Positions 1 to 58,473 of a DNA stretch of 64,000 nucleotides are shown piece by piece. The DNA is taken from contig CM119263.1 in NCBI GenBank assembly GCA_051294375.1, positions 24,423,447 to 24,487,446 on the forward strand, read 5' to 3'. Within the stretch, counting starts at the first letter, position 1. Every line of letters begins with the position of its first letter. A model generated the notes under the pieces. It saw nothing but the letters and a program-made list of their open reading frames with translations. It was not told the origin of the DNA and ran no database searches. Both the position numbers and the translations under genes were made by a program. The DNA is from Paraspadella gotoi. Lineage: Eukaryota > Animalia > Chaetognatha.

Positions 1-1431
1 TCTCTCTCTCACGAAATCTAACCCTCCATCGTCTGCGTTGATCTTTTTCATTCTTCGAAATCCCTACAAGCCTTAGCAAGCATCAAACCCCCATCCCCGC
101 GCCCCACCTATTTCTACCAATCAATGCGTTGTCTCGTTTAAAATCGAGCATTCTTTTATCATTATCGAAACCGATAAGTCGGCGAAAGCGTAAGAAAGTA
201 ATTACCAAATTTTTCGGTTTTTGCTCGCAGTTTTTAGTTCTGATAATGCCAATTACTTTTAAGAAATACATTATCCTTCTTCGCTTTCATTTACCGCTCT
301 CTCGATCGATTTTTATGTACATTTCAATTTTTTAAGTTCCAAAATTATGGAGCATTTTGTCCAAGGCTGCAGACACATCCGTAGACTTTCTACTTTCGAT
401 CCCCGGGCGACTTCACTCCCAAAGAGTCCGTCCCCCGATGGATTTGNNNNNNNNNNNNNNNNNNNNNNNNNNNNNNNNNNNNNNNNNNNNNNNNNNNNNN
501 NNNNNNNNNNNNNNNNNNNNNNNNNNNNNNNNNNNNNNNNNNNNNNNNNNNNNNNNNNNNNNNNNNNNNNNNNNNNNNNNNNNNNNNNNNNNNNNNNNNN
601 NNNNNNNNNNNNNNNNNNNNNNNNNNNNNNNNNNNNNNNNNNNNNNNNNNNNNNNNNNNNNNNNNNNNNNNNNNNNNNNNNNNNNNNNNNNNNNNNNNNN
701 NNNNNNNNNNNNNNNNNNNNNNNNNNNNNNNNNNNNNNNNNNNNNNNNNNNNNNNNNNNNNNNNNNNNNNNNNNNNNNNNNNNNNNNNNNNGTCTTTTTC
801 TTCGTCCCTTTTTTTCTTACTTTTTCCGCCACTTTTTCTTTTTTTCTTTTGAACTTTTTTTATTTCTTTTCGGCGACGTCACCGAGCGCTGTTCTTTTCT
901 TTTTCTTTCGGTCGCAGGGATACTCTGTCATTATCAGAGATAAATGATTGTGATTGTGATGTCGTTGACTTTGTTCGAGTTCCGACACAATGCGTTGCTC
1001 TGGTTGTGCTCATGACACTTTTAAAAGGTTATTTTTAAAAAAAGTTATAAAGGAATAAAAGGATAAGGTCCCATGTCCTTTGTCCAATATCTAATGTATG
1101 ATATCCGATGTCAAATGTTCATTTTCCAATGTCCAATAGACAAAGAAAAAGCGAAAGAAAAGGAGGAGAAACCGAAGAAAAGAGTTAGAAGAAACGGACG
1201 TTTTTCTTCCCCCGAGTCGGGATCTTCGTGAGATGTCAGAGCTGATGTTGATGTTGATGTTGATGTTGAAAGCCAGCGACTGAAATGGTCTGTCAGTTGC
1301 GGATTCGCTCTGTCAACGACTTCTCATGGTTTTCGCCAAGAAACGAGAGAACGTTTGAACGAGGTGAAAGTCGAGAAAGACTCGCGGCGAAAAGGAAGCG
1401 AAGTTTTATGAATTGCCGATCATAGGTTATT

Positions 1432-1488
1432 ATCTTGTAAGAGAGAGTCCCTAATTCTCCATAGCCAGTCAAAAGTCTGTCCCAAGAT
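1432..1488 (+). repeat. Degenerate relic of the short twister-ribozyme repeat family
   Basis: ATCTTGTAA...TAA...CATAG-CCAG-TCAAAAGT-CTG..CAAGAT-AACTTATTTATT follows the layout and flanks of the copies at 26180 and 27646. P4 is swapped (CAG/CTG instead of CTG/CAG), but the GATGG/P1 part is deleted or mutated. Confidence 0.55.
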
Positions 1489-2212
1489 AACTTATTTATT
1501 AATTGGTTGAATCAATCCACCATATACGTCCGCACGTACGTTGATTCAGATTCACATTCGTACATAAAAGACAATGCAAATCATTGCTACAAAATCGTGA
1601 AAATAATTCAAAAATTGGCAGAATGTTTTTATCCTTTTAATTCGAACTTGTAAGGCTTAAAGGCGTTTTTTTTCTTCGGCTCCCGGAAGTAAGAGAGACT
1701 CAGCTTAAAAGAGAACGAAAAAGACGAAAGATGGCAGCATCATAATGGCTTTACTGGAGCCGGAGAGTCAATGCCCTTGTCTCAGACCGACTTATTCCAT
1801 TTGACAAAAATTGTCTCTGCGAGTTCGTGACAAAACAACCATATCGCCTCGTGTCAATAGTCATTACAATTTAAACAGAAAATGTGAGGAATGGATAATT
1901 TAGATATATTGTGGGATTCTCCGTAACTTTACATTAGTTTTTGGGAAAAATGTCCTACAGATTCGTCATCCATTATCATCGCCATCATAATCGCCTTAGA
2001 TCTTAACGTTGTCGTCGTTTTTGTCGTCGTCGTCGTCGTCGTCGTCATGGTTCTCGGCCTATCGTCGTGATGTTCGTAATCGTAGAAGTCTCAGTCAATT
2101 CTTGGCCGCCTCGCTATCCCTTTTTTTCGTTAATTCGTATTTTCTGTTTTTCCTTTATTTTTTTTCCCCCTTCGAACTATTCATGCTTAATCGTCTTTTC
2201 AACTACATTCCG

Positions 2213-23729: not shown

Positions 23730-26700
23730 TCACTCCGCCTTCTCTACTCTCTCCGTCTTTCGCAGCTCGGCGCAAACGACCGCGTGGCCCGCCTTCCAGT
23801 TGGCGCGTTGGCAGTCGGCAGAGCAGTACCACGCCCTCTTGCAACGCGAGCAGAAGGGGAATTTCTTGCCCTCGGGGGCGGCCTTGCGGCAGTGGAGACA
23901 CTCGTGCTCGCCGTCACCCTCAAACGAGCAGAGCGGGCATTTGCACTCGAAGGAGTAAGAGTGGAGCAACTGCGCCTGGCGATCGACGCGCGGTTGGCGA
24001 GGATCGATGTAAGAGATGAAACATTGCTCGTCCTTTTGAATCGGGCGGACGCTGTAGACGTGGACGCCGGGAAGACGGCGAATGAAGTCGCTCTTTACCT
24101 CGCAGTTGTGGAGGCAGCTGTGGTTAAGACAGGCGTGGAGAGGGAAGAGACCACCGAACATCGGTCGTCGAGGTTCTTCCTGTCAATGGGAAGGGAAGTT
24201 GAGTGGGAAAGAGAGAAGTGGTCGTCATTGAGATGAAATATAACAAAAAAAAATTTTGCAATCGGCAATTTCGAAGAGCTCTCGGGTCGTGAAAAAAAAA
24301 AACCGGTAGTCATCTCATGTTCAACAAAGGAAAGAAAAGGAACCTCTTAAAACCTTAAGCCCCTTGAAAGATAAGTCAAAACATTCTACCACCGTTTTAA
24401 TATTTGTCTATAAATTGTCTACAACGTAAAAATTTGTATTAGGAGAAGAAAACGTCTGAGCGTTGGAGGATTGAAAAAAAGATGGCAAAGCGGGAGAACA
24501 GCGTAGCAAAGCGATTTCCCAGCAGAGGCGCTCCGCCACAGTCGCACTGCACAGTGCACAGAAGCAAAACGTTTTCACCAAGCGCGGAATTCAACGAAAA
24601 TTCTCCCTCGTACATTATTTATGATTCCGCCCCGCCGGAAAAGGAAGACCGGAAAGCTTGGGAAGCGGAAAAGCCGGAAAGCAGGAAAAATCGGAAAGGC
24701 GGACGGGCGGAATGTCGTAAAACGTATGATGAATTCCCAGGAAAAAAACAAAAGGAATTAAGAGATAAAAAGCGGAACCGACTGGAGTCGGAGGAGCGGG
24801 AGATTTTGAATGACATCAGCGATGGAAAGAAGAAGACTCGAAACGATGATAAAAAAAAAGATTGAAAAGAGAGGGAGGAATAAAGAACTGGAATGGAAGA
24901 AGAAACGGGCTGTCATTCCGGAGAAGATTTTCTCGTGAATGGTGGAAAAAATATGAGGGGAATGTGAAAATGACAGATTTGATTCAAGGGCCGATGGGAA
25001 TGGAGAGAAGAAAGTGGGATCGGGTAATGGGTAAGTTGGTTGTGAGAGGAAAGGAGTAAAGAAGGAGAGAAAGGAGAAAAAGGGAAAGAAAACTCGAAAT
25101 AAAATAATCAAGATTCCTACTTGAAGATAGTCTTTGATTTCGTCGAGAACGCCTTCATAGGGAAACTCTTCGGCCAGGGTGTCGACGAAGATCTGATAGT
25201 TGGTCTTCGGAGGTCCGTAGAACTGCGCGTTATTGGCGAGTTGATAGTGGCGACCGTCGTACTCTCGTGCGTCGATGTCGTAGGGAACAGGGAGATTTTC
25301 GTTTCTGAAAAGCGACGGCAGAAAGCGATTAGAATGGCTGGATTTGGCCAACAAAAGGGCAAAGTCGTTTTCTTTCATTTTAAAAAGATTCTTATTTCTT
25401 AAGATGCTCGGATATTTAATCGTATCAGATTATGATATAGATGCATATCAACATATTGTGACGAATCCTAAATTCGCCTCCCGTATAGCTTGGTGAAACT
25501 CAGCTCGTCCCATTGGCTAAGGACAGCTAGGTACTCGTTCACCAACCGTGAGTTCCGTCTTCAATCCCCTCACGGTCACGCTGGTTAAAAGTGTGATGGT
25601 GTCGGCGTAAACACGCCAGTGACATGGGGTGGTCACTGCAGGTCCAAAGCCCTAAGCGCCAGTTATCGGGAGATGCCACAGACCCCGGGCATCACACATG
25701 TCTCCCCGTTTCCATAATATACATTATACAATTGAATAAATATTATGTTCAATATATGTCCTTTTAAAACCCGAAGGTTACCTGAAGATAACCTTGAGAT
25801 CGTCGAAGCAGGGTTTGACAGCTGGCGTTTGACTGTAGCCTTCCTTTCCGAAACCTATGAATCGGCGAAAAGGGTCTCGGGCTTTCTCCCAGTGAACCTC
25901 CGTCGCTTCTTCCGTTCCCTCCTCTTTCCACAGTTTATCCACCTGAAAGAGGCAAAATACTGAGTTTTTTTAAACTTCGGGAGAGCCAGAGCAATTTTAG
26001 AGTGTATAGAGAGACGGTTAGAAAAGTCACATGAGTCTTTCCATGAAATTGAAACATTCTTTGAAATATTATACCACTTCATTGATTGGGAAGCCAGCTA
26101 CTCTTGGAGTGAATAAACGAGACCGTGAGAGAGTCTTGATTGAAAGCTTAGTTATTATGTTATGTTATGTTAAGTTATTATCTTGTAAGAGTGATGGAGG
26201 TCATAAACCACCAAAGCCTGTCCAAAGTCAGGGGCAAGATAGCTTATTCATTAAATGAATGGACAATTTCATGACTATCCGAGTCGTGTCGTTAAATGGC
26301 ATGGCGCGACGGGGAATAGAAACAATAAACCTTGACGGGAGGTGCAGATGGGATTGATTTAATCCGTCCGGCAAATGACATCCGGGGATGAATTATCGTT
26401 GTCAAGGAAAATATGCTTCGTCGCGAAAGAAAAAAAATTTAAAATAAAAACCCACCACTTTCCCATGCCATTGCCCATGCCATTGCTTGTAAGGTGGAAA
26501 TTTAAATAAAACAATTAGCTACTTAATAAAGATATGAAATAAAAATTGTTTGAAAAGTTTTTAGTGATTCCGAATTTTAGAAACACTCACTTTCGCAACG
26601 ATTTTGGCCCATAGTTTGGCCAGCAGCAGATAGGACGGGATCGGTTTCGCGTTCCACCTTGAATAAGCTTCTTCGTCCTCCTTGGAACGGGCCAAGTATT

Positions 26701-28928
26701 CTTGCTTGTCTTCCAGGAATCGCCGATGTAGGCGTCCAGCGTCCGGATTAACGACCTGGCAGAGCACCTTGTGATAATCCTCCCAGGCGGCCAGGCGACA
26801 CTGCTCGGAGCAGTAGCATTCGTGACCGCATCGATCGCATAGCTCCTGCGCCTCGTTGGGCCAGTATTGCGTTACGATATCTTTGAGGTTTTCTGGATTT
26901 CGATTAGATAATTGAAAAGAAGCAAAATATCACTTCGCTTCAGTTTTATGACATAGTCCCCTAATTTGATCCGTCTACGTTTAAATTTTGTACCTGGCAT
27001 TTCTTTCCACTTTTCTTTAAAAACGTTCTCCGGCATGGAGGCGTCCATGCCGCAGTTGTAACACGCATAACACTCGATGGAAGTTTCTATCGTTTGAATA
27101 TGAATTGCAGCGAAGTCTCTCAGAACCACCTTTTTTTTAATTAAAGAGAGAGAGTGATTATAAATTATTAAAATCGAATTAATGCGGGGAAGGACGAAAA
27201 CGGAATGGGAAGCAGTCGGTTTGGCATCATTGGAAAACAAGTAAATATAAAATTTTGCAAAGCCAATGGCTACGAAGCTTACCGTTTATAAAAAAAAAAA
27301 CTGTTAAAAAAAATACGGGCCGGAGCGACAGAAGTGCCGAGGCACTAACCTCTCCTTCGGGGATGTAATCTCTGGCGTAAATCCCGCGAATCATTTCCGT
27401 TGTAAATCTTACTTCAACCTAGAAAATCGAAGAAAAAAAACCAAAGTTTTTTTTTTCATAGTTCCAACTGGTTGCTGATGGAAGGAAATATATTATATTT
27501 AGCCTTATCTAATTTCGTGAGAACCCAATTTTGGATAAGAATAGCTGGAAAATCCAATATATACGCAAAAATGACAAAAATAAAATAACGGAAATATTAA
27601 TAATAAGGATGATGACAATTAGGATCCTTGTATTTTGATGCTGTTGTCTTGTAAGTGTGATGGAGGCCTTAAACCACCATAGCCTGTGCAGTGTGCTAAG
27701 TCAGGGGCAAGATAGCTTATTTATTGAATGAATGAATAATTTTATATTTGTTGTACCAATTTCATTTATTAAATTGGTACAATTAAAAATTTCCCACGCA
27801 TTAAAAAATTAAGCTATCTTGCCCCAAGATTTGAACATGGTTTCTAATATGAAGAGAATTGATTTATCGCATCCGTTTTGATCCCTAGCCCAAAAAACCT
27901 GCAAATTGGTGCTCAACGGGTCGTAGTGTCTCTTTGTCCTCGTTTGCTGAAACAACAGTAGCGTTTCTTCATCATCTTCCTCCGCAGCTTTCGTCGCCGT
28001 CCGGAGCCAATGTTCGGCGGCAACGTAAAAACCCAAAGAGGCCAATATTTTTCCTATTATCAAAAAGCCAGGGTCTGAGTATTATCCAACGCTAGCAGGT
28101 GTCATGGTTTCATCAGGTAAAACGCGATCAGTGAAAGGATTCGAGGCACACCACACTTTTTCCTCCATCGCATCAAATAACCCAACTAGTATAACAACAA
28201 CAACCCTTTTATTCTTTTCTTTTTGAATTATGGGACCTAAACTTTCAAATCGCCAAACATGAACATATATCATAAATATTAAATAATTTGGATTAAGTAA
28301 GAAGTACAGATGACGTTCAATTCGTCAAAGCGACCAGTCAAATTTCCCCCGTGCGTTCCTACCTCCTAATTTTAACACTTCTGGAGTTCTCAGGCCCCTT
28401 TCGATGTTTGACAAAAAACGATACGCCTCTTTCAATTTTCCCAAATCGTACAGAACGGAGGCGTACTTGAACCAGTACTCGACTGTTTTTCTGTCCATTT
28501 GAATGGCCTTTAAATACCATTGGGATGCTTTGGTGATGTTGCCTAGGAAAGAAAATATGACGCGTTTTTCCTCTTAGAATATTTTTGTTTGGCACTGGGC
28601 CACGAAATGAGCTTCCACCTTGTTGAATGTACGAATCTCCCTTTTTGGCAATTTTTACTGCTTCTTGCGGATCGTTGAGTTTATCCGAGAGACACGGTTT
28701 TGACGTGAAGCCAATTTCGTCGAGACGGCGAGATTCGCTGGACCGAGAGAAAGCCGAAGTAGTTGATCAAGTAGGGTGATATTTATGACCATGAGATTTA
28801 AATTGAAAAACGTAAGATATGACGTTTTATTACCTCAAAAATAATTCTTTGTCACCGAAGTAAGGATTTTGGGGACACATACGAAGCGTTTCAAGTGCCG
28901 ACGGGGGATTAAACGGATCGCCCATCAT
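23730..28928 (-). CDS. SMYD-family lysine methyltransferase: N-terminal TPRs, split SET with MYND finger, post-SET, second C-terminal MYND finger
   Basis: Ten phase-consistent exons: 28928-28834, 28737-28619, 28542-28363, 28053-27899, 27418-27350, 27129-26994, 26892-26591, 25942-25782, 25304-25121, 24179-23730. Motifs: TPR GNITKASQWYLKAIQMDRKTVEYWFKYASVLYDLG; SET-N RGIYARDYIPEGE; MYND CYACYNC...CDRCGHECYCSEQCRLAAWEDYHKVLC; SET-C LNHSC..NC and ISYI; post-SET FECKCPLC; second MYND CLHC...CSRCKRAWYCSADCQRANWKAGHAVVC. Confidence 0.9.
25472..25710 (+). mobile_element. ~230-nt highly structured element (SINE/retrozyme-like) carrying a twister motif, in SMYD intron 8
   Basis: GC-rich island in an AT-rich intron. 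Visible helices: CTCCCGTATAGC/GTTATCGGGAG (closing), TTGGTGAA/TTCACCAA, CCGTGAG/CTCACGG and GATGCC/GGCATC, plus the twister fold. Confidence 0.55.
25580..25663 (+). ncRNA. Twister self-cleaving ribozyme, circularly permuted type P5
   Basis: P5 GCTGGT/GCCAGT; P2 GTGT(25591)/ACAC(25611); L1 GATGG and TAA (predicted U|A cleavage at 25608|25609); short P1 TGTCGGCG; GC(25615) pseudoknot with the loop GC; P3 CAGTGAC/GTCACTG; P4 AGG/CCT; L4 TCCAAAGC, whose CCA pairs with TGG of GATGG (a compensatory variant of canonical UCCCAAGC/GAGGG). Confidence 0.8.
26180..26240 (+). ncRNA. Short type P5 twister-ribozyme copy (slightly degenerate), SMYD intron 7
   Basis: ATCTTG-TAA-GAGT-GATGG-AGGTCA-TAA-ACC-AC-CAAAG-CCTG-TCCAAAGT-CAGG-GG-CAAGAT. 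P5, P4 and both pseudoknots (TGG/CCA, AC/GT) are intact; the P1 palindrome and P2 are partly mutated. Confidence 0.65.
27646..27713 (+). ncRNA. Short twister-family copy with disrupted L4 (probably inactive), SMYD intron 4
   Basis: GTCTTG-TAA-GTGT-GATGG-AGGCCT-TAA-ACC-AC-CATAG-CCTG-[TGCAGTGTGCTAAGT]-CAGG-GG-CAAGAT. The loop is 7 nt longer and lacks CCA. Confidence 0.6.
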
Positions 28929-33161: not shown

Positions 33162-37746
<4,585 letters not shown>

Positions 37747-47560: not shown

Positions 47561-47620
47561 CAAGACCCTGACTTTGGACAGGCTTTGGTGTGTTTAAGGC
47601 CTCCATCACTCTTTCAAGAT
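47561..47620 (-). ncRNA. Short type P5 twister-ribozyme copy with intact core and palindromic P1
   Basis: Reverse complement: ATCTTG-AAA-GAGT-GATGG-AGGCCT-TAA-ACAC-AC-CAAAG-CCTG-TCCAAAGT-CAGG. P2 has one mismatch; the 3' strand of P5 is lost. Confidence 0.7.
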
Positions 47621-48295
47621 AATGAAATTTCAGATCTCTGCAAGTTTCAATCGAGACTCTCTCTCAGTCTCGTTCATTCACTCCAGAGTACCTGGTTTTC
47701 CCTATCAATGAGTGGCATAATATTTAGATATTAGCCCAGTTATGAGCATTTTAAAACGTAAGTGGGCAGACAACGTACCGACCGACCGACTAACCAAAAT
47801 TAACTTAATAAATTGCTTTACGAATACTACTAACGGCGCAACTGTAAAGAAAGCAAGAAAGAAATAAAGAAAGAGAAAGAAAAGGAAAAGAAAAGAAGAT
47901 AAGAAATAAATAGGTTTCATAACTCTCTCCGCCGAGACGGAAAACTCAATCAGGTTTCACTTTCACCGTCGGGCAACTCAAGTAGGACGATTTCATCATT
48001 TTCAATTCCGCGCATCGTTTATGGGTCAAAACCGCGACGCGGCGCCATTTTGGTTTATGGCGTTTCGCGACGCGCGACGCGAGATGGCGCTTAGTCTCTT
48101 TCAGCTTTGTCAGAGACATGGCGGGTGGTGGTGGGGTCGAAGGGATATTTCTATCTAGGTGTGGGATGAAGTGTTAAACCGAGCACATACATGTCATAAA
48201 TGCTTTTTCTTATGATTACTATTTTAATTATATATTATTGTTAAAATATTTGATTAAAAGGTTAACAGGAATTTATGGTTCCAAGTGGAACCGGG

Positions 48296-54232: not shown

Positions 54233-55825
54233 CCGGGTCCATTCTCGCCCCGATGGGTCGAGAAGGACAACCGGGCAGCGACGGGCTCGAACCCCTTTTG
54301 TCAATCCCTTCGGTTTCTCCTCGTGTTTGTCGCGTTTTTTGTCATTTATTTTCTATTCATTCGTCTTTTGTTTTTCTTTTTGTTTCGTTTCGATCTTTTC
54401 TGTCTTTTCTTCTCTCGGCCACGAGCGCCGGCGCGGAAACGACGACGACAACGACGACGACATCGATTCTTGTTTGATCGGCAATAAATTCACACCTCAT
54501 CAAATCCGCGGCCTCGGCCGTGAGTCTCCTCGGTTTTAAGGGGGCGGGAAAGAGGGGGGGGGGAGGCTAAAGATGTTTTGTGCCGGGCGGAGGTGTTGAT
54601 TGCCGGACGCCGGACGGAACGTCGGTCCACCCCGATCGGTCGGTCGGTCGTTGAATTCCAAAACACACAAAAACCTTAAAAGCCGATTTCGATTCTTGTA
54701 TGGGAATTTTTTTTGCGTCGCTATGCAAACTAGACGAACCGTTGGAAAATCAAACAGCGTCGACGTTAACTATGACGCATTTTTTCGTTTGATTTAATTT
54801 TTTTGACCCGCCGTTGACAGAAATTTATGTTGTTTTTTTTTCCCTCTCCATTGTTGCCAAGTGATCGTCGCAATTGTGGTTTTGAAAAGGCTTTAACTGT
54901 TAAATCTTCAATTCTTGAAACCTAAAACCAAGCTGCGGTATAAGTACTAGTAATTTCCTGTATATGAACCAAAACTTTCAAAATATTTCGTGTTTTTGTA
55001 TTACTAATATTATAATAACCCAATTGAAAAACCGGGTCCATTCTCGCCCCGATGGTCGAGAAGGACAAACCGGCAGCGACGGGCTCGAACCCTTTTGTCA
55101 ATCCCTTCGTTTCTCCTCGTGTTTTGTCGCGTTTTTTGTCATTTATTTTCTATTCATTCGTCTTTTGTTTTTCTTTTTGTTTCGTTTCGATCTTTTCTGT
55201 CTTTTCTTCTCTCGGCCACGAGCGCCGGCGCGGAAACGACGACGACAACGACGACGACATCGATTCTTGTTTGATCGGCAATAAATTCACACCTCATCAA
55301 ATCCGCGGCCTCGGCCGTGAGTCTCCTCGGTTTTAAGGGGGCGGGAAAGAGGGGGGGGAGGCTAAAGATGTTTTGTGCCGGGCGGAGGTGTTGATTGCCG
55401 GACGCCGGACGGAACGTCGGTCCACCCCGATCGGTCGGTCGGTCGTTTGAATTCCAAAACACACAAAAACCTTAAAAGCCGATTTCGATTCTTGTATGGG
55501 AATTTTTTTTTGCGTCGCTATGCAAACTAGACGAACCGTTGGAAAATCAAACAGCGTCGACGTTAACTATGACGCATTTTTTCGTTTGATTTAATTTTTT
55601 TGACCCGCCGTTGACAGAAATTTATGTTGTTTTTTTTTCCCTCTCCATTGTTGCCAAGTGATCGTCGCAATTGTGGTCTTGAAAAGCTTTAACTGTTAAA
55701 TCTTCAATTCTTGAAACCTAAAAACCAAGCTGCGGTATAAGTACTAGTAATTTACTGTATATGAACCAAAACTTTCAAAATATTTCGTGTATTAGTATTA
55801 CTAATATTATAACCCAATTGAAAAA
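54233..55825. repeat. Near-identical ~800-bp tandem duplication (54233-55031 / 55032-55825)
   Basis: Both copies start CCGGGTCCATTCTCGCCCCGATGG and end AACCCAATTGAAAAA. Differences are mostly single-base homopolymer indels. Confidence 0.92.
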
Positions 55826-56054: not shown

Positions 56055-56638
56055 AGGGCGTTTGAGAGCAAAGGGCGATTAAGAGCAGAGGGCGATTGAG
56101 AGCAGAGGGGCGATTGAGAGCAAAGGGGCGATTGAGAGAAAAGGGCGCGATTGAGAGCAAAGGGGCGATTGAGAGCAAAGAGGCGATTGAGAGCAAAAGA
56201 GGCGATTGAGAGCAAAAGGGCGATTGAGAGCAAAGGGGCAGAGAGAAAAGGCGATTGAGTAGAAAGGGGTGATGGATAGCAGAGGGGATTGAGAGCAAAT
56301 GGGCGATTGAGAGAAAGGGACCGATTAAGAGCTGAGGGGCGATTGAGGGCAAAGGGGCGATTGAGAGCAACGGGCGATTGAGGCAAAGGGACGTTGAGAG
56401 CAAAGGGGCGATGAAGAGCAGAGGGGTGGTTGAGAGCAAAGGGGTAAATTAAGAGCAAATGGGCGATTGAGAGCAAAGGGCCGAGTAAGAGCAGAGGTGA
56501 TTGAGAGCAAAGGGGGATTGATACAAGGTGAGGAGAGCAGAGGGCGATTGAGAGCAAAGCGGCGATTGAGAGCAAAAGGGGCGATAAGAGCAGAGGTGCG
56601 ATTTGAGAGCAAAGGGGCGATTGAGAGCAAAGGAGCGC
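56055..56638. repeat. Degenerate ~18-bp minisatellite (GATTGAGAGCAAAGGGGC, ~30 units)
   Basis: Direct reading. It produces the repetitive LLSIAP/ALNRPF/CSQSPL ORFs on the minus strand. Confidence 0.92.
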
Positions 56639-58473
56639 TTGGAAAAACGATGTTTTTGCTTTGGGAAATACAGCTATGATGATTTAGAATCTTTACGTAA
56701 GAACGTTGGCAAAATAATTTTAAAAAAGTTTCGTATTTATTGTATTTGTTGATCCTAGAAAAAATTGTAACATTAATTTATAAAAAAACAATGTTATGTT
56801 TGTAAAAACTCGTCCATTTTCCATAATTCACCAGGAACCACGGTAATACTAATAGGTGCTTAACTACGTAATGTCATCGATCCCTCGTCTTTTGATCACT
56901 CGATNNNNNNNNNNNNNNNNNNNNNNNNNCGCTTTCGATCGCTTTCGATCGCTTCGGCGCTAAAAAGCTCAAAGTGAGTCTCGCCGCGTGACGTCTTCGA
57001 CTTCTGCTCCGCGGGATTCCACCGAAACAAAGACGCCATTCCTCTCCGCTGATTGCCGCCAAGTCGGCCGCCGACTCGCGTTCCTCTAGCCGACGCAACC
57101 GACAACACTCGGTCCACTATCTCCGGCGCGAACATCGGGTCCGCCGACGAATTAACGAGCCAGCTGTCTCGGTTGGTGATCTTATTATTATTGTTGTTGT
57201 TACTTGCTGCACCATTCACGGTTTAGACACGGTGAAACCTGCTGATAACAAACAAGGTGTTAACTACATAGCATATAATTGCATCGAGTTAAAATTCGAT
57301 ATTCTCAAATTGCCGCTCGAGCAGTTATACTAATAGTCTAATACCCAGAAACGTCAACACAAAATACAAAGTACTGAGCTTAGTCATTGGTCAATGGTCA
57401 TAAGAAGAATATCCCAAAAGTTTTGAATTGATTCCGGGTTTTATAAAATTTAATTTTTCGCCCCATTTAGACTATGATAAAATTTTAAACGCAACATAAT
57501 TTCAAAATACTTTTATTGCTCGAAGAGAGATAGTGAATTGTTAAGTATTTTGTCATTAAAAAGAAATTAATTTCGTTCGATCACTGCATTACCATCCCGT
57601 TTCTATCCCCGGGGCCACGCCGAGGCTGCAATTAATTTTCCATTTTTCTACCAAATTTTCAGTAAAAATATGTTTAAAAAAATGTTGTATCTTCGCAGAG
57701 GTTTTTGTTCGGGTGGAGCCGCTGAGTGACCAGATGAACTCCCCTTTCCCCCCAAAGATTCCCGCAAAGTTACCAGCCCCCGCAGCTGGTCATCCTCCAC
57801 TTAGGGGCACTTTACTTCCCCACTCCGCTCAACCCTCCTCCTCTTCGCTTTTTAACCGCCCTCTGGCGGAAACGCCCGAAGACACCCGGCCGCAGCGGCG
57901 GCGGCCGCGGCGGAGGCGGCCCTCTCGCCTGGTTTCGGTTCCTCGTTTATTTACAAAGCGCCGTTCATTTGTTTATGACTGGTTTAAAGAGATTCAAGAT
58001 TTCCACCCTTTGCCCGGCGTAATTGGTAGCATCGGGTTTTCTTAGGGGGGAAGGATTGGGGGGGGAGAAATGGGGAGAGGGGAAGTTGGGAGAAAGGGAA
58101 ACAGGGAACTGAGATTAAGGTGGGGAAAGTTAAGACGGAAGACAAGTTTAGCGGGAACGTTGCGCAAGAAAAGCAAGTCAATTTGCAGATGCATAAATTA
58201 CTTAATTGGAATACACAAGTGTCTGGGAACTGAGGAAAATTCGGTCAGATGTCTGTAATGTTGCGAAATCGAAGACGATTAACTAGAAGGTTTAACAGTT
58301 TAAAAAAAATATGGATGAAAAAAAAAAGCGTTCAGAAAAAGCTTAGCGAGTCTTTTACCCAAAATATGGGACCCATTAAGAGACAACAAAGTTTCGGTGG
58401 TTCAACCGAAAAAGGTTCACATATCAACGTGAAATAAATCTTCTTTTTTAACCACGAAACTTAGCCATCGATA

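What the first reader, a model, noticed from the sequence alone, without database searches (positions are those of the whole stretch)
25472..25710. The larger twister is embedded in a fully folded ~230-nt multibranch RNA element
Seen: outside the ribozyme the island carries further helices (TTGGTGAA/TTCACCAA with inner AGCT-GTCC/GGAC-AGCT; CCGTGAG/CTCACGG; GATGCC/GGCATC) and a closing helix CTCCCGTATAGC/GTTATCGGGAG. TCACGCT/AGTGTGA and GGCGT/ACGCC compete with twister P5/P2. Inference: a retrozyme/SINE-like unit with alternative ribozyme-off and ribozyme-on folds, resembling small circular ribozyme RNAs.
Basis: partly seen in the sequence, partly recalled or inferred. Interest (0 to 1): 0.72.

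Follow-up and report, generated by a model that had tools for sequence, protein, structure and literature searches.

The report
Twister ribozyme inside high-copy retroelement
This folded ~260-base island is one worn copy of a short DNA repeat found at roughly a thousand-fold or more the depth of its single-copy flanks; its RNA carries a rearranged twister self-cutting motif that is predicted, but not shown, to cleave itself, likely best when two copies pair.

Summary
The window copy folds only modestly better than shuffles (z -2.1).

The island is not a single-locus RNA. Contigs from four public runs show a dispersed repeat of about 262 nt (25453/57 to 25716/17). Its summed depth is about 2,000-5,500 times that of the flanks. 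This copy lies antisense in a 477-nt intron of a SET/MYND gene.

The window copy differs from the family majority at nine near-fixed positions. Putting the majority letters back improves the fold (z -3.7) and makes all 21 twister helix pairs Watson-Crick.

The motif is a circularly permuted (type-P5) twister with P3. The catalytic A and G, both pseudoknots and the L4 loop are in place. One pseudoknot pair is a compensated G-C to U-A change. Rfam scores it below threshold.

P1 is reduced to an 8-nt self-complementary segment. The nested minimum-energy fold of the monomer hides P2'. I therefore infer dimer-favoured cleavage, as in Penelope-like and retrozyme hammerheads.

Circular RNA, tandem units and cleavage itself are not shown. 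I rate it a new variant of a known kind.

The parts
25453..25717 (+). One copy (about 262-265 nt) of a dispersed high-copy repeat family
   Evidence: Loose ends of contigs at 25453/56/57 (before) and 25716/17 (behind), with unlike AT-rich flanks (agreement 0.42-0.47). Summed depth in X1 is 97-137 thousand against 24.8 in the flank. It is the only copy in the window.
25478..25489 (+). Closing helix, 5' strand
   Evidence: Pairs with 25662-72. Pair probability is 0.93-0.99 in both the window and the majority version.
25662..25672 (+). Closing helix, 3' strand. The family majority has C at 25663 and G at 25665.
   Evidence: Both private changes in this copy keep pairing (G-C to G.U, U.G to U-A).
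25490..25545 (+). Hairpin A (outer 8 bp plus inner AGCU/GUCC stems)
   Evidence: MFE. Outer stem probability 0.79-0.82.
25546..25575 (+). Hairpin B (7 bp). In the family majority its top reads GGTTCAATCC at 25558-67, like a Pol III B box.
   Evidence: Probability 0.99. Majority G at 25558 and 25559, 95-99% of summed depth. The window copy itself lacks the box.
25576..25596 (+). Competing 'off' hairpin UCACGCU/AGUGUGA, which sequesters P2' and G25595
   Evidence: Probability 0.92 in the majority version. All positions are invariant, so there is no covariation test.
25580..25663 (+). Circularly permuted (type-P5) twister domain. P5 is 25580-84 with 25659-63.
   Evidence: Manual assignment against the twister domain table in PMC8501958 and the rules in PMC11662667. 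All 21 helix pairs are Watson-Crick in the majority version.
25586..25594 (+). L2 3' strand UAAAA (25586-90), then P2' GUGU (25591-94)
   Evidence: Canonical order is UAAA-P2'-GAGGG. A 1-nt deletion at 25587 in 29-47% of summed depth gives UAAA.
25595..25599 (+). L1 3' strand GAUGG. G25595 is the predicted general base. 25596-99 is the pseudoknot PK2 strand.
   Evidence: The canonical sequence is GAGGG. Here U25597 pairs with A25646, a change on both sides (sequence).
25600..25607 (+). P1 slot: an 8-nt self-complementary segment (majority UGUCGGCA). It can form a 2-bp mini hairpin or an 8-bp duplex with a second copy.
   Evidence: Self-duplex is 8 bp at -9.5 kcal/mol. An intermolecular helix 25599-25608 appears in the cofold of two twister domains.
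25608..25614 (+). L1 5' strand UAA (cleavage predicted between U25608 and A25609; A25609 is the general acid), then P2 ACAC (25611-14)
   Evidence: Position rules from PMC8501958 section 17 and PMC11662667 section 32. Cleavage was not tested.
25615..25638 (+). PK1 5' strand GC (25615-16) and the P3 hairpin (25617-23 with 25632-38)
   Evidence: PK1 partners are G25649 and C25650. P3 probability is 0.68-0.79.
25639..25654 (+). P4 (25639-42 with 25651-54) and loop L4, G-UCCAAAGC-C
   Evidence: Majority G at 25654 restores the C-G pair. The canonical loop is GUCCCAAGC. P4 covaries with the second family.
25672..25693 (+). 3' hairpin GAUGCC/GGCAUC
   Evidence: Probability 0.76-0.82.
25305..25781 (-). 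Host intron (477 nt) that contains the element in antisense
   Evidence: A 1917-nt contig of run X9 joins 25120-25304 to 25782-25942. GT and AG are present on the minus strand. Neighbouring minus-strand exons encode SET and zf-MYND domains.

Best explanation
The island is a slightly decayed copy of a ~262-nt dispersed repeat, at about 2,000-5,500 times flank depth, whose majority sequence contains every sequence feature of a circularly permuted (type-P5) twister ribozyme; that ribozyme is predicted, not shown, to cut between U25608 and A25609.

Shown here: the copy lies antisense in an intron of a SET/MYND gene. The 'multibranch RNA' is the element's own fold. In the twister-enforced fold, P5 of the twister opens into a junction with two hairpins and an 11-bp closing helix.

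Inferred: P1 is only an 8-nt self-complementary segment, and the monomer's nested minimum-energy fold hides P2' and the general base in a competing hairpin. I therefore infer that cleavage is favoured when two copies (two transcripts or adjacent units) pair through that segment and swap strands. This is how the minimal hammerheads of Penelope-like elements and animal retrozymes are thought to work. The ribozyme would then likely process element RNA during a retrotransposition cycle driven by an autonomous partner that I could not identify.
For: Repeat family:
- Summed contig depth over the island against single-copy flanks is 97-137 thousand vs 24.8 in X1, 500-780 thousand vs 234 in X2, and 47-61 thousand vs 12.7 in X4 (about 2,000-3,200-fold at 90% likeness).
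- Borders are marked by loose ends with unlike flanks.

Majority letters:
- At nine places, 94-99% of summed depth in all four runs differs from the window copy.
- The majority letters lower the MFE from -85.8 to -94.8 and move z from -2.17 to -3.72.
- They make 21 of 21 twister helix pairs Watson-Crick. The window copy has 18 Watson-Crick pairs, 2 wobbles and 1 C.A.

Twister features by sequence, against the rules read:
- U-A-A with the general-acid A, and G25595 as general base.
- PK1 GC/GC. PK2 is G-C, G-C, U-A plus A.A, with the U-A pair changed on both sides from the canonical G-C.
- L4 A6 is present. P2 and P4 are 4 bp each.

Chance and covariation:
- The post-hoc motif GATGG..TAA..GTCCAAAG occurs 3 times in the window against 0.01 expected. 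0 of 100 shuffles reach 3.
- Across this copy and four copies of the second family, 87.7% of 57 cells pair against 74.9 +/- 2.9 in shuffles (0 of 500).
- 4 of 13 pairs change on both sides (1 of 500 shuffles). Slid controls give 18-44% paired.

Dimer idea:
- The P1 slot self-duplexes over 8 bp at -9.5 kcal/mol.
- Two twister domains cofold to -74.3 against 2 x -30.6, with an intermolecular helix 25599-25608.
- The second family has the perfect palindrome AGGCCU in the same slot in two window copies.
- The hammerhead precedent comes from passages of PMC4209133 and PMC7229834.
Against: - No cleavage data exist. All runs are contigs, so no RNA ends can be seen.
- Rfam does not recognise the motif at its thresholds.
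- In the nested ensemble, P2, mini-P1 and P5 have pair probability about 0.00. The twister-enforced fold is 9.5 kcal/mol worse than the MFE before pseudoknots are counted.
- The twister part alone folds no better than shuffles.
- The family is very uniform (core variants at or below 4% of depth), so conservation within it says little about selection.
- The covariation set is five sequences from two related families, and the structure was derived from them.
- The cofold puts P2 one register off the twister register, and the cofold of whole elements does not use the P1 slot.
- Copies are dispersed, so pairing would need two transcripts.
- P1 is reported to be dispensable, so a monomer may cut as well.
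- No partner element, target-site duplication or tail was found.
Confidence: 0.6

Rival explanations
1. A Pol III-driven, tRNA-derived SINE. The 5' half would be a tRNA-like head with A and B boxes. The twister would cut as a monomer, separating head from tail or setting a 3' end for a ~150-nt head RNA. A LINE would supply the reverse transcriptase.
For: The family majority reads GGTTCAATCC at 25558-67, matching the B-box consensus GGTTCRANNCC (consensus recalled; majority letters). That pattern is expected about 1.1 times per 64 kb, so about 0.005 times in 265 nt. TAGCTTGGTGA at 25486-96 resembles an A box (recalled consensus, 2 mismatches). Hairpin B looks like a T arm. P1 is dispensable for twisters. 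The Sm-alpha precedent of a Pol III SINE-like element with a hammerhead is described in review PMC6765202.
Against: ARAGORN finds no tRNA in the window copy or the majority version. There is no tRNA hit in Rfam up to E = 10. The element starts about 29 nt before the A-box-like word. There is no A-rich or simple-repeat tail and no target-site duplication. Cutting in the middle would separate the promoter from the 3' end needed for reverse transcription.
Confidence: 0.2
2. A retrozyme-like element that lives as a small circular RNA. Tandem units would be cut at each twister, ligated into circles, and copied back into DNA.
For: A highly self-paired ~260-nt RNA with an internal ribozyme is the size and shape of animal retrozyme RNAs, 170-400 nt (PMC7229834 abstract and passages). 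The closing helix brings the two ends together.
Against: Copies have fixed ends far from the cleavage site and unlike flanks. The shown joints are all at single-copy depth, and only one goes back (25593 to 25483, depth 231 in X2). 56 joints and 50 inserts were not shown. There is no second copy in the window.
Confidence: 0.1
3. The twister-like motif is an inactive relic or a chance look-alike, and the fold is only the general self-pairing of a GC-richer repeat.
For: Sub-threshold Rfam scores. The twister part alone is not better than shuffles. P2 is only 4 bp and is out-competed in the nested model. The family is too uniform to show selection.
Against: All catalytic and pseudoknot positions are in place, with changes on both sides in PK2, PK1 and P4. 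The motif occurs 3 times against 0.01 expected. The private mutations of this copy are the ones that weaken the helices.
Confidence: 0.1

Closest known systems
Type-P5 twister ribozymes (Rfam RF02684, twister clan; permutations described in PMC10085705 and PMC6765202, passages read)
   Same: Same order of parts: UAAA-P2'-L1 3' strand-P1-UAA-P2-GC-(P3)-P4/L4, with the ends leaving through P5. The catalytic A and G, PK1 and PK2 are all present.
   Different: P1 is an 8-nt self-complementary segment instead of a hairpin. One PK2 pair is U-A instead of G-C. P5 continues into a junction with two hairpins and a long closing helix. It scores below Rfam thresholds.
T-variant twisters at the 5' end of Perere-3 (an RTE non-LTR retrotransposon) in Schistosoma mansoni (PMC8501958; abstract, introduction and section 17 read)
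   Same: A twister carried by a high-copy retroelement, likely used to process the element's RNA.
   Different: Those are type P1, sit at the very 5' end, and cut so that the element starts at the cleavage site. Here the ribozyme is permuted and the predicted cut lies about 152-156 nt inside a ~262-nt unit.
Minimal type-I hammerheads of Penelope-like elements and animal non-LTR retrozymes (PMC4209133, PMC7229834; passages read)
   Same: A short terminal helix capped by a small palindromic segment, proposed to be active only as a dimer. Thousands of copies in invertebrate genomes. Short, highly self-paired RNAs.
   Different: A different ribozyme class (twister, not hammerhead). Copies here are dispersed, not tandem. 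No circles are shown.
Sm-alpha SINE-like elements of schistosomes with a hammerhead (as described in review PMC6765202, passage read)
   Same: A short non-autonomous element with a possible Pol III promoter and an internal self-cleaving ribozyme.
   Different: Hammerhead, not twister. Sm-alpha often occurs in tandem. The tRNA-like head here is not detected by ARAGORN or Rfam.
Naiad-type Penelope-like elements (PMC8557442, passages read)
   Same: [quoted passage not shown] The flanks here are TA-rich.
   Different: No RT or GIY-YIG coding sequence was found in the window (80 of 136 ORFs scanned). No sequence link to any Naiad was tested. Twisters in Naiads are only unchecked notes of this scan, not in print in my searches.

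Membership tests
Twister ribozyme class | L1 5' strand N-A-A with the general-acid A right after the scissile bond | tested here: met
   U25608 A25609 A25610 directly 5' of P2. Rule from PMC11662667 section 32.
Twister ribozyme class | General-base G at the first position of the L1 3' strand | tested here: met
   G25595 directly 3' of P2' (rule).
Twister ribozyme class | PK2: the L1 3' strand pairs with L4 (three pairs plus a trans A.A) | tested here: met
   G25599-C25644, G25598-C25645, U25597-A25646, A25596.A25647. The third pair is changed on both sides from the canonical G-C (sequence). 80% of cells are paired across 5 sequences.
Twister ribozyme class | PK1: two pairs between the NC that follows P2 and the GC of L4 | tested here: met
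   G25615-C25650 and C25616-G25649. The second family has AC/GU, a change on both sides.
Twister ribozyme class | Helices P2 and P4 flanking the conserved loops | tested here: met
   P2 is 4 of 4 Watson-Crick pairs. P4 is 4 of 4 in the majority version and 3 of 4 in this copy. However, their probability in the nested ensemble is 0.00 for P2 and 0.22-0.55 for P4.
Twister ribozyme class | P1 helix next to the cleavage site | tested here: inconclusive
   Only a 2-bp mini hairpin, or an intermolecular 8-bp duplex. P1 is reported to be dispensable.
Twister ribozyme class | Score at or above the Rfam gathering cut-off | tested here: not met
   0 gathering hits. Twister-P1 scores 18.1 against 67.2, and there is no Twister-P5 hit on this island up to E = 10. 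The models carry no pseudoknots, and this combination of P3 with a tiny P1 is not in them.
Twister ribozyme class | Site-specific self-cleavage | not testable with these tools
   Only contigs were available, so no RNA ends can be seen.
Animal non-LTR retrozymes | Tandem head-to-tail units, each bounded by ribozyme cleavage sites | tested here: not met
   One copy in the window. There is no abundant go-back joint among those shown (56 joints not shown).
Animal non-LTR retrozymes | Type-I hammerhead ribozyme | tested here: not met
   No hammerhead hit in 24800-26400 up to E = 10. The motif is a twister.
Animal non-LTR retrozymes | Expression as small circular RNA | not testable with these tools
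   Contigs of run X9 contain copies, one inside a 908-nt contig at depth 110.7. Circles cannot be seen.
tRNA-derived SINE | Internal Pol III A and B boxes in a tRNA-like head | tested here: inconclusive
   The B-box word is present only in the majority version. The A box is imperfect. No tRNA by ARAGORN or Rfam.
tRNA-derived SINE | A-rich or LINE-derived tail and target-site duplication | tested here: not met
   The element ends ...CCGTTTCCATA with no tail. The longest flank match is 6 nt, 13 to 28 nt from either end, in AT-rich DNA. No partner LINE was available for comparison.
Non-autonomous derivative of a Penelope-like (Naiad) element | Shared terminal sequence with an autonomous element encoding RT and a GIY-YIG nuclease | not tested
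   No whole genome is held. No RT or GIY-YIG appears among the 80 ORFs scanned. No look-alike in earlier windows.

The most novel reading that the evidence does not exclude
This genome holds two families of 'twister retrozymes', one in thousands and one likely in tens of thousands of copies. They would be short non-autonomous retroelements whose permuted twister has traded its P1 hairpin for a palindrome. The ribozyme would then assemble and cut only as a strand-swapped dimer. That would be the twister counterpart of the dimeric hammerheads of Penelope-like elements, and these families would be mobilised by hammerhead-less Naiad-type Penelope-like elements.
Probability: 0.3. Interest if true: 0.75.

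Novelty: new variant of a known kind. Interest (0 to 1): 0.55.

Why it matters
Twister ribozymes are widespread, but only one biological role is in print: 5' processing of an RTE retrotransposon in a flatworm.

This is a second, differently wired association. A permuted twister sits in the middle of a short non-coding repeat present in thousands of copies, and its P1 is built like the dimer-only hammerheads of retrozymes. If it holds, it would show that unrelated ribozyme classes converged on the same 'cut only when two copies meet' switch in mobile elements.

It would also explain how retroelement groups reported to lack hammerheads process their RNA. And it gives a concrete construct for testing flank- or dimer-controlled cleavage.

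It also shows that Rfam thresholds miss an abundant eukaryotic twister variant.

Tried and rejected
- **Whole-genome copy search:** no genome is held for this window.
- **Rfam at gathering thresholds:** nothing in the window.
- **Relatives in public collections:** a 19-nt core word gave 0 hits in viral contigs and genome contigs. It gave 3 hits in metagenome contigs. Alignment showed no likeness outside the word, so those are chance hits.
- **Earlier notes of this scan:** nothing by place or by sequence.
- **RNA evidence:** no RNA holder is listed. X9 is only guessed to be RNA, though it holds a spliced contig. Contigs cannot give starts, ends, strand or level. The uneven X9 depth along the element was not interpreted. 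Low-level DNA carry-over cannot be excluded for the repeat signal.
- **tRNA origin:** ARAGORN found nothing on the window copy or the majority version, also at a relaxed setting.
- **Target-site duplication:** none convincing in the AT-rich flanks.
- **Terminal inverted repeats:** none beyond TGTGA/TCACA by eye, so I rejected a MITE reading.
- **Organism placement:** the protein atlas gave only generic eukaryotic kinase clusters, and I did not pursue it.
- **Pfam on ORFs of 100 aa or more:** no reverse transcriptase or GIY-YIG nuclease. I scanned 80 of 136 ORFs. The other 56 were dropped because they were low-complexity or contained N.
- **Cofold of two whole elements:** it swaps hairpin A and does not use the P1 slot.
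- **Single-locus regulatory RNA of the host intron:** rejected because of the copy number and the antisense orientation.
Full report
**Observation.** The minimum-energy fold of 25472-25710 on the plus strand uses all of them. That fold is -81.3 kcal/mol with z -2.11, and 6 of 200 dinucleotide shuffles fold as well. The minus strand gives z -0.62, 41 of 200. Taken alone, this copy is only modestly better folded than chance. Rfam gives no hit at gathering thresholds anywhere in the window. In permissive mode it gives twister-P1 at 25604-25660 with 18.1 bits against a cut-off of 67.2. It also gives Twister-P5 at 26190-26232 with 21.5 bits against 37.6.

**What the island is.** The window is eukaryotic in character. 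It has only short ORFs, many (CT)n tracts, no tRNA genes, and exons for SET/zf-MYND and kinase domains. No whole genome is held, so I laid contigs of public runs on the region.

In three DNA runs from two studies, the summed contig depth over the island is far above the flanks. At 85% likeness it is 97-137 thousand against 24.8 in X1, 500-780 thousand against 234 in X2, and 47-61 thousand against 12.7 in X4. At 90% likeness the ratios are about 2,000-3,200-fold. The tool warns that summed depth is not a copy number, so I read this only as 'thousands'.

Loose ends mark the family borders at 25453/56/57 and 25716/17. The letters beyond them are AT-rich and unlike each other (agreement 0.42-0.47). 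The copies are therefore dispersed units of about 262 nt. The window has no second copy.

The joints shown are deletions at single-copy depth, plus one go-back at single-copy depth. No abundant head-to-tail joint is among them. 56 joints and 50 inserts were not shown.

A 1917-nt contig of run X9 joins 25120-25304 to 25782-25942, with GT and AG on the minus strand. The element therefore lies antisense in a 477-nt intron of a minus-strand gene. The neighbouring exons of that gene encode SET and zf-MYND domains.

**Majority letters.** At nine places, 94-99% of summed depth in all four runs carries a letter other than the window's:

| Place | Window to majority |
|---|---|
| 25530 | G to A |
| 25558 | T to G |
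| 25559 | C to G |
| 25607 | G to A |
| 25654 | A to G |
| 25663 | T to C |
| 25665 | A to G |
| 25678 | A to T |
| 25681 | G to C |

I replaced these letters in a script and refolded. The MFE of 25453-25717 goes from -85.8 to -94.8 kcal/mol. The z-score goes from -2.17 (4 of 300 shuffles) to -3.72 (0 of 300). For 25476-25674 z is -4.98, 0 of 300. So this copy is a decayed member of a well-folded master sequence. The excess stability comes from hairpins A and B and the closing helix. The twister part alone is no better than shuffles.

**The twister.** I compared the sequence with the domain table of S. mansoni twisters (PMC8501958 section 17) and the positional rules of the CHiTA study (PMC11662667 sections 24 and 32 and passages). 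It reads, 5' to 3':
- UAAAA at 25586-90, which becomes UAAA in the 29-47% of depth with a 1-nt deletion
- P2' GUGU at 25591-94
- L1 3' strand GAUGG at 25595-99
- an 8-nt P1 slot at 25600-07
- UAA at 25608-10
- P2 ACAC at 25611-14
- GC at 25615-16
- the P3 hairpin at 25617-38
- P4 with loop G-UCCAAAGC-C at 25639-54
- P5, 25659-63 pairing with 25580-84

This is the type-P5 circular permutation, with a P3. The general acid (A25609), A25610, the general base (G25595), PK1 (GC with G25649-C25650) and L4 A6 are all present. In PK2 the canonical middle G-C pair is replaced by U25597-A25646, a change on both sides.

In the majority version, 21 of 21 pairs in P2, mini-P1, P3, P4 and P5 are Watson-Crick. 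The window copy has 18 Watson-Crick pairs, 2 wobbles and one C.A.

The post-hoc word pattern GATGG..TAA..GTCCAAAG occurs 3 times in the window against 0.01 expected. No shuffle out of 100 reaches 3.

**Covariation with a second family.** The other two matches belong to a second, even more abundant repeat at 26047-26269. Its summed depth reaches about 40,000 times the flank in X1. It has partial copies at 47566-47725(-), 27644-27745, 1423-1505 and 27787-27843(-). It carries a P3-less version of the same motif.

I took five sequences, one from this family and four from the second. On these, the structure with P2, P4, PK1 and PK2 pairs 87.7% of 57 cells, against 74.9 +/- 2.9 in shuffles (0 of 500). 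4 of 13 pairs change on both sides (1 of 500 shuffles). Slid controls give 18-44%. Two cautions apply: the structure was derived from these sequences, and they come from only two related families.

**How it likely works.** Shown: the repeat nature, the fold, and the presence of all twister features. Inferred: activity and its control.

In the nested ensemble the twister helices P2, mini-P1 and P5 have probability about 0.00. A hairpin at 25576-82/25590-96 (probability 0.92) hides P2' and G25595. A helix at 25598-602/25656-60 (0.77-0.85) ties up the L1 strand. The twister-enforced fold is 9.5 kcal/mol worse than the MFE, before any pseudoknot energy is counted.

The P1 slot (majority UGUCGGCA) is self-complementary over all 8 nt, counting two G.U pairs, at -9.5 kcal/mol. 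Two twister domains cofold to -74.3 against 2 x -30.6 kcal/mol, with an intermolecular helix 25599-25608 and swapped P2-like and P5 strands. The second family has the perfect palindrome AGGCCU in the same slot in two window copies.

This matches what is described for animal type-I hammerheads in Penelope-like elements and retrozymes. There, a 1-2-bp helix III capped by a small palindromic loop is proposed to make the ribozyme active only as a dimer (PMC4209133 and PMC7229834, passages). I therefore commit to dimer-favoured cleavage that processes element RNA.

Three points count against this. The cofold P2 register is off by one. Whole-element cofolding does not use the slot. And P1 is reported to be dispensable, so monomers may cut as well.

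**Mobilisation.** Two readings remain open.

A Pol III SINE reading rests on the majority word GGTTCAATCC at 25558-67 and an imperfect A-box-like word at 25486-96. Both consensus motifs are recalled from memory. No tRNA model supports this reading. There is no tail or target-site duplication.

A Penelope-like (Naiad) partner is suggested by three things: TA-rich flanks, the hammerhead-style P1 logic, and the published absence of hammerheads in Naiads (PMC8557442 passages). Unchecked notes of this scan from other genomes also describe type-P5 twisters with a palindromic first helix in Naiad tails. I could not test any sequence link.

**Literature.** Twisters in retroelements are in print for RTE/Perere-3 (PMC8501958). 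One review also mentions unpublished work on RTE elements (PMC7761336, passage). A November 2026 paper still cites only the Perere-3 study for twisters in retrotransposons (PMC13725137, passages).

My searches were: twister with retrozyme/repeat, with SINE/B box, type-P5, Naiad with ribozyme, twister with Penelope-like, and twister with dimeric/palindromic. None found a report of a permuted twister inside a short dispersed repeat, or of a dimer-type twister. Supplements of these papers were not read and might list such sequences.

**Verdict.** It is a new variant of a known kind, of moderate interest.

Noticed in passing
window 26047-26269 (+); copies at 47566-47725 (-), 27644-27745 (+), 1423-1505 (+), 27787-27843 (-): A second repeat family, still more abundant (summed depth up to about 40,000 times the flank in X1). 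It carries a P3-less mini twister-like motif at 26186-26232 (Rfam Twister-P5 21.5 bits, cut-off 37.6). It shares the GAUGG/UCCAAAG pseudoknot change, and its P4 and PK1 covary with the first family. The P1 slot is the palindrome AGGCCU in two copies. The part 26150-26204 varies between subfamilies.
   Followed up: partly
window 25558-25567 (family majority only): The majority letters G at 25558 and 25559 create GGTTCAATCC, a match to the Pol III B-box consensus (recalled). The window copy has lost it.
   Followed up: partly
window 23733-24182 (-), 25120-25304 (-), 25782-25942 (-), 26564-26929 (-): Host gene on the minus strand with SET and zf-MYND domains (SMYD-like). A spliced RNA contig confirms the intron 25305-25781. 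Both ribozyme-bearing repeats lie antisense in its introns.
   Followed up: partly
window 33488-34126 (+) and 36958-37743 (+): Two exons of a protein kinase gene (Pkinase E 5.5e-45 and 2.3e-52).
   Followed up: no
window 56056-56654: Tandem array of an 18-19-nt unit (CGATTGAGAGCAAAGGGG-like), about 30 copies.
   Followed up: no
window 54332-54412 and 55129-55209: A duplicated T-rich segment of about 80 nt, the two copies 797 nt apart.
   Followed up: no
window 25441-25457 and loose ends before 25457: In many family copies the letters just before the 5' border end in ...ATATGATAG after an A-rich run. The window has TATGATATAG 16 nt further upstream (25431-40). This could be a short 5' extension, a target preference or chance in TA-rich DNA.
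   Followed up: no
L001, L002, L003 (metagenome contigs): Three exact matches to a 19-nt word of the twister core that share nothing else with the element, so chance matches. L001 and L002 are near-identical to each other.
   Followed up: yes
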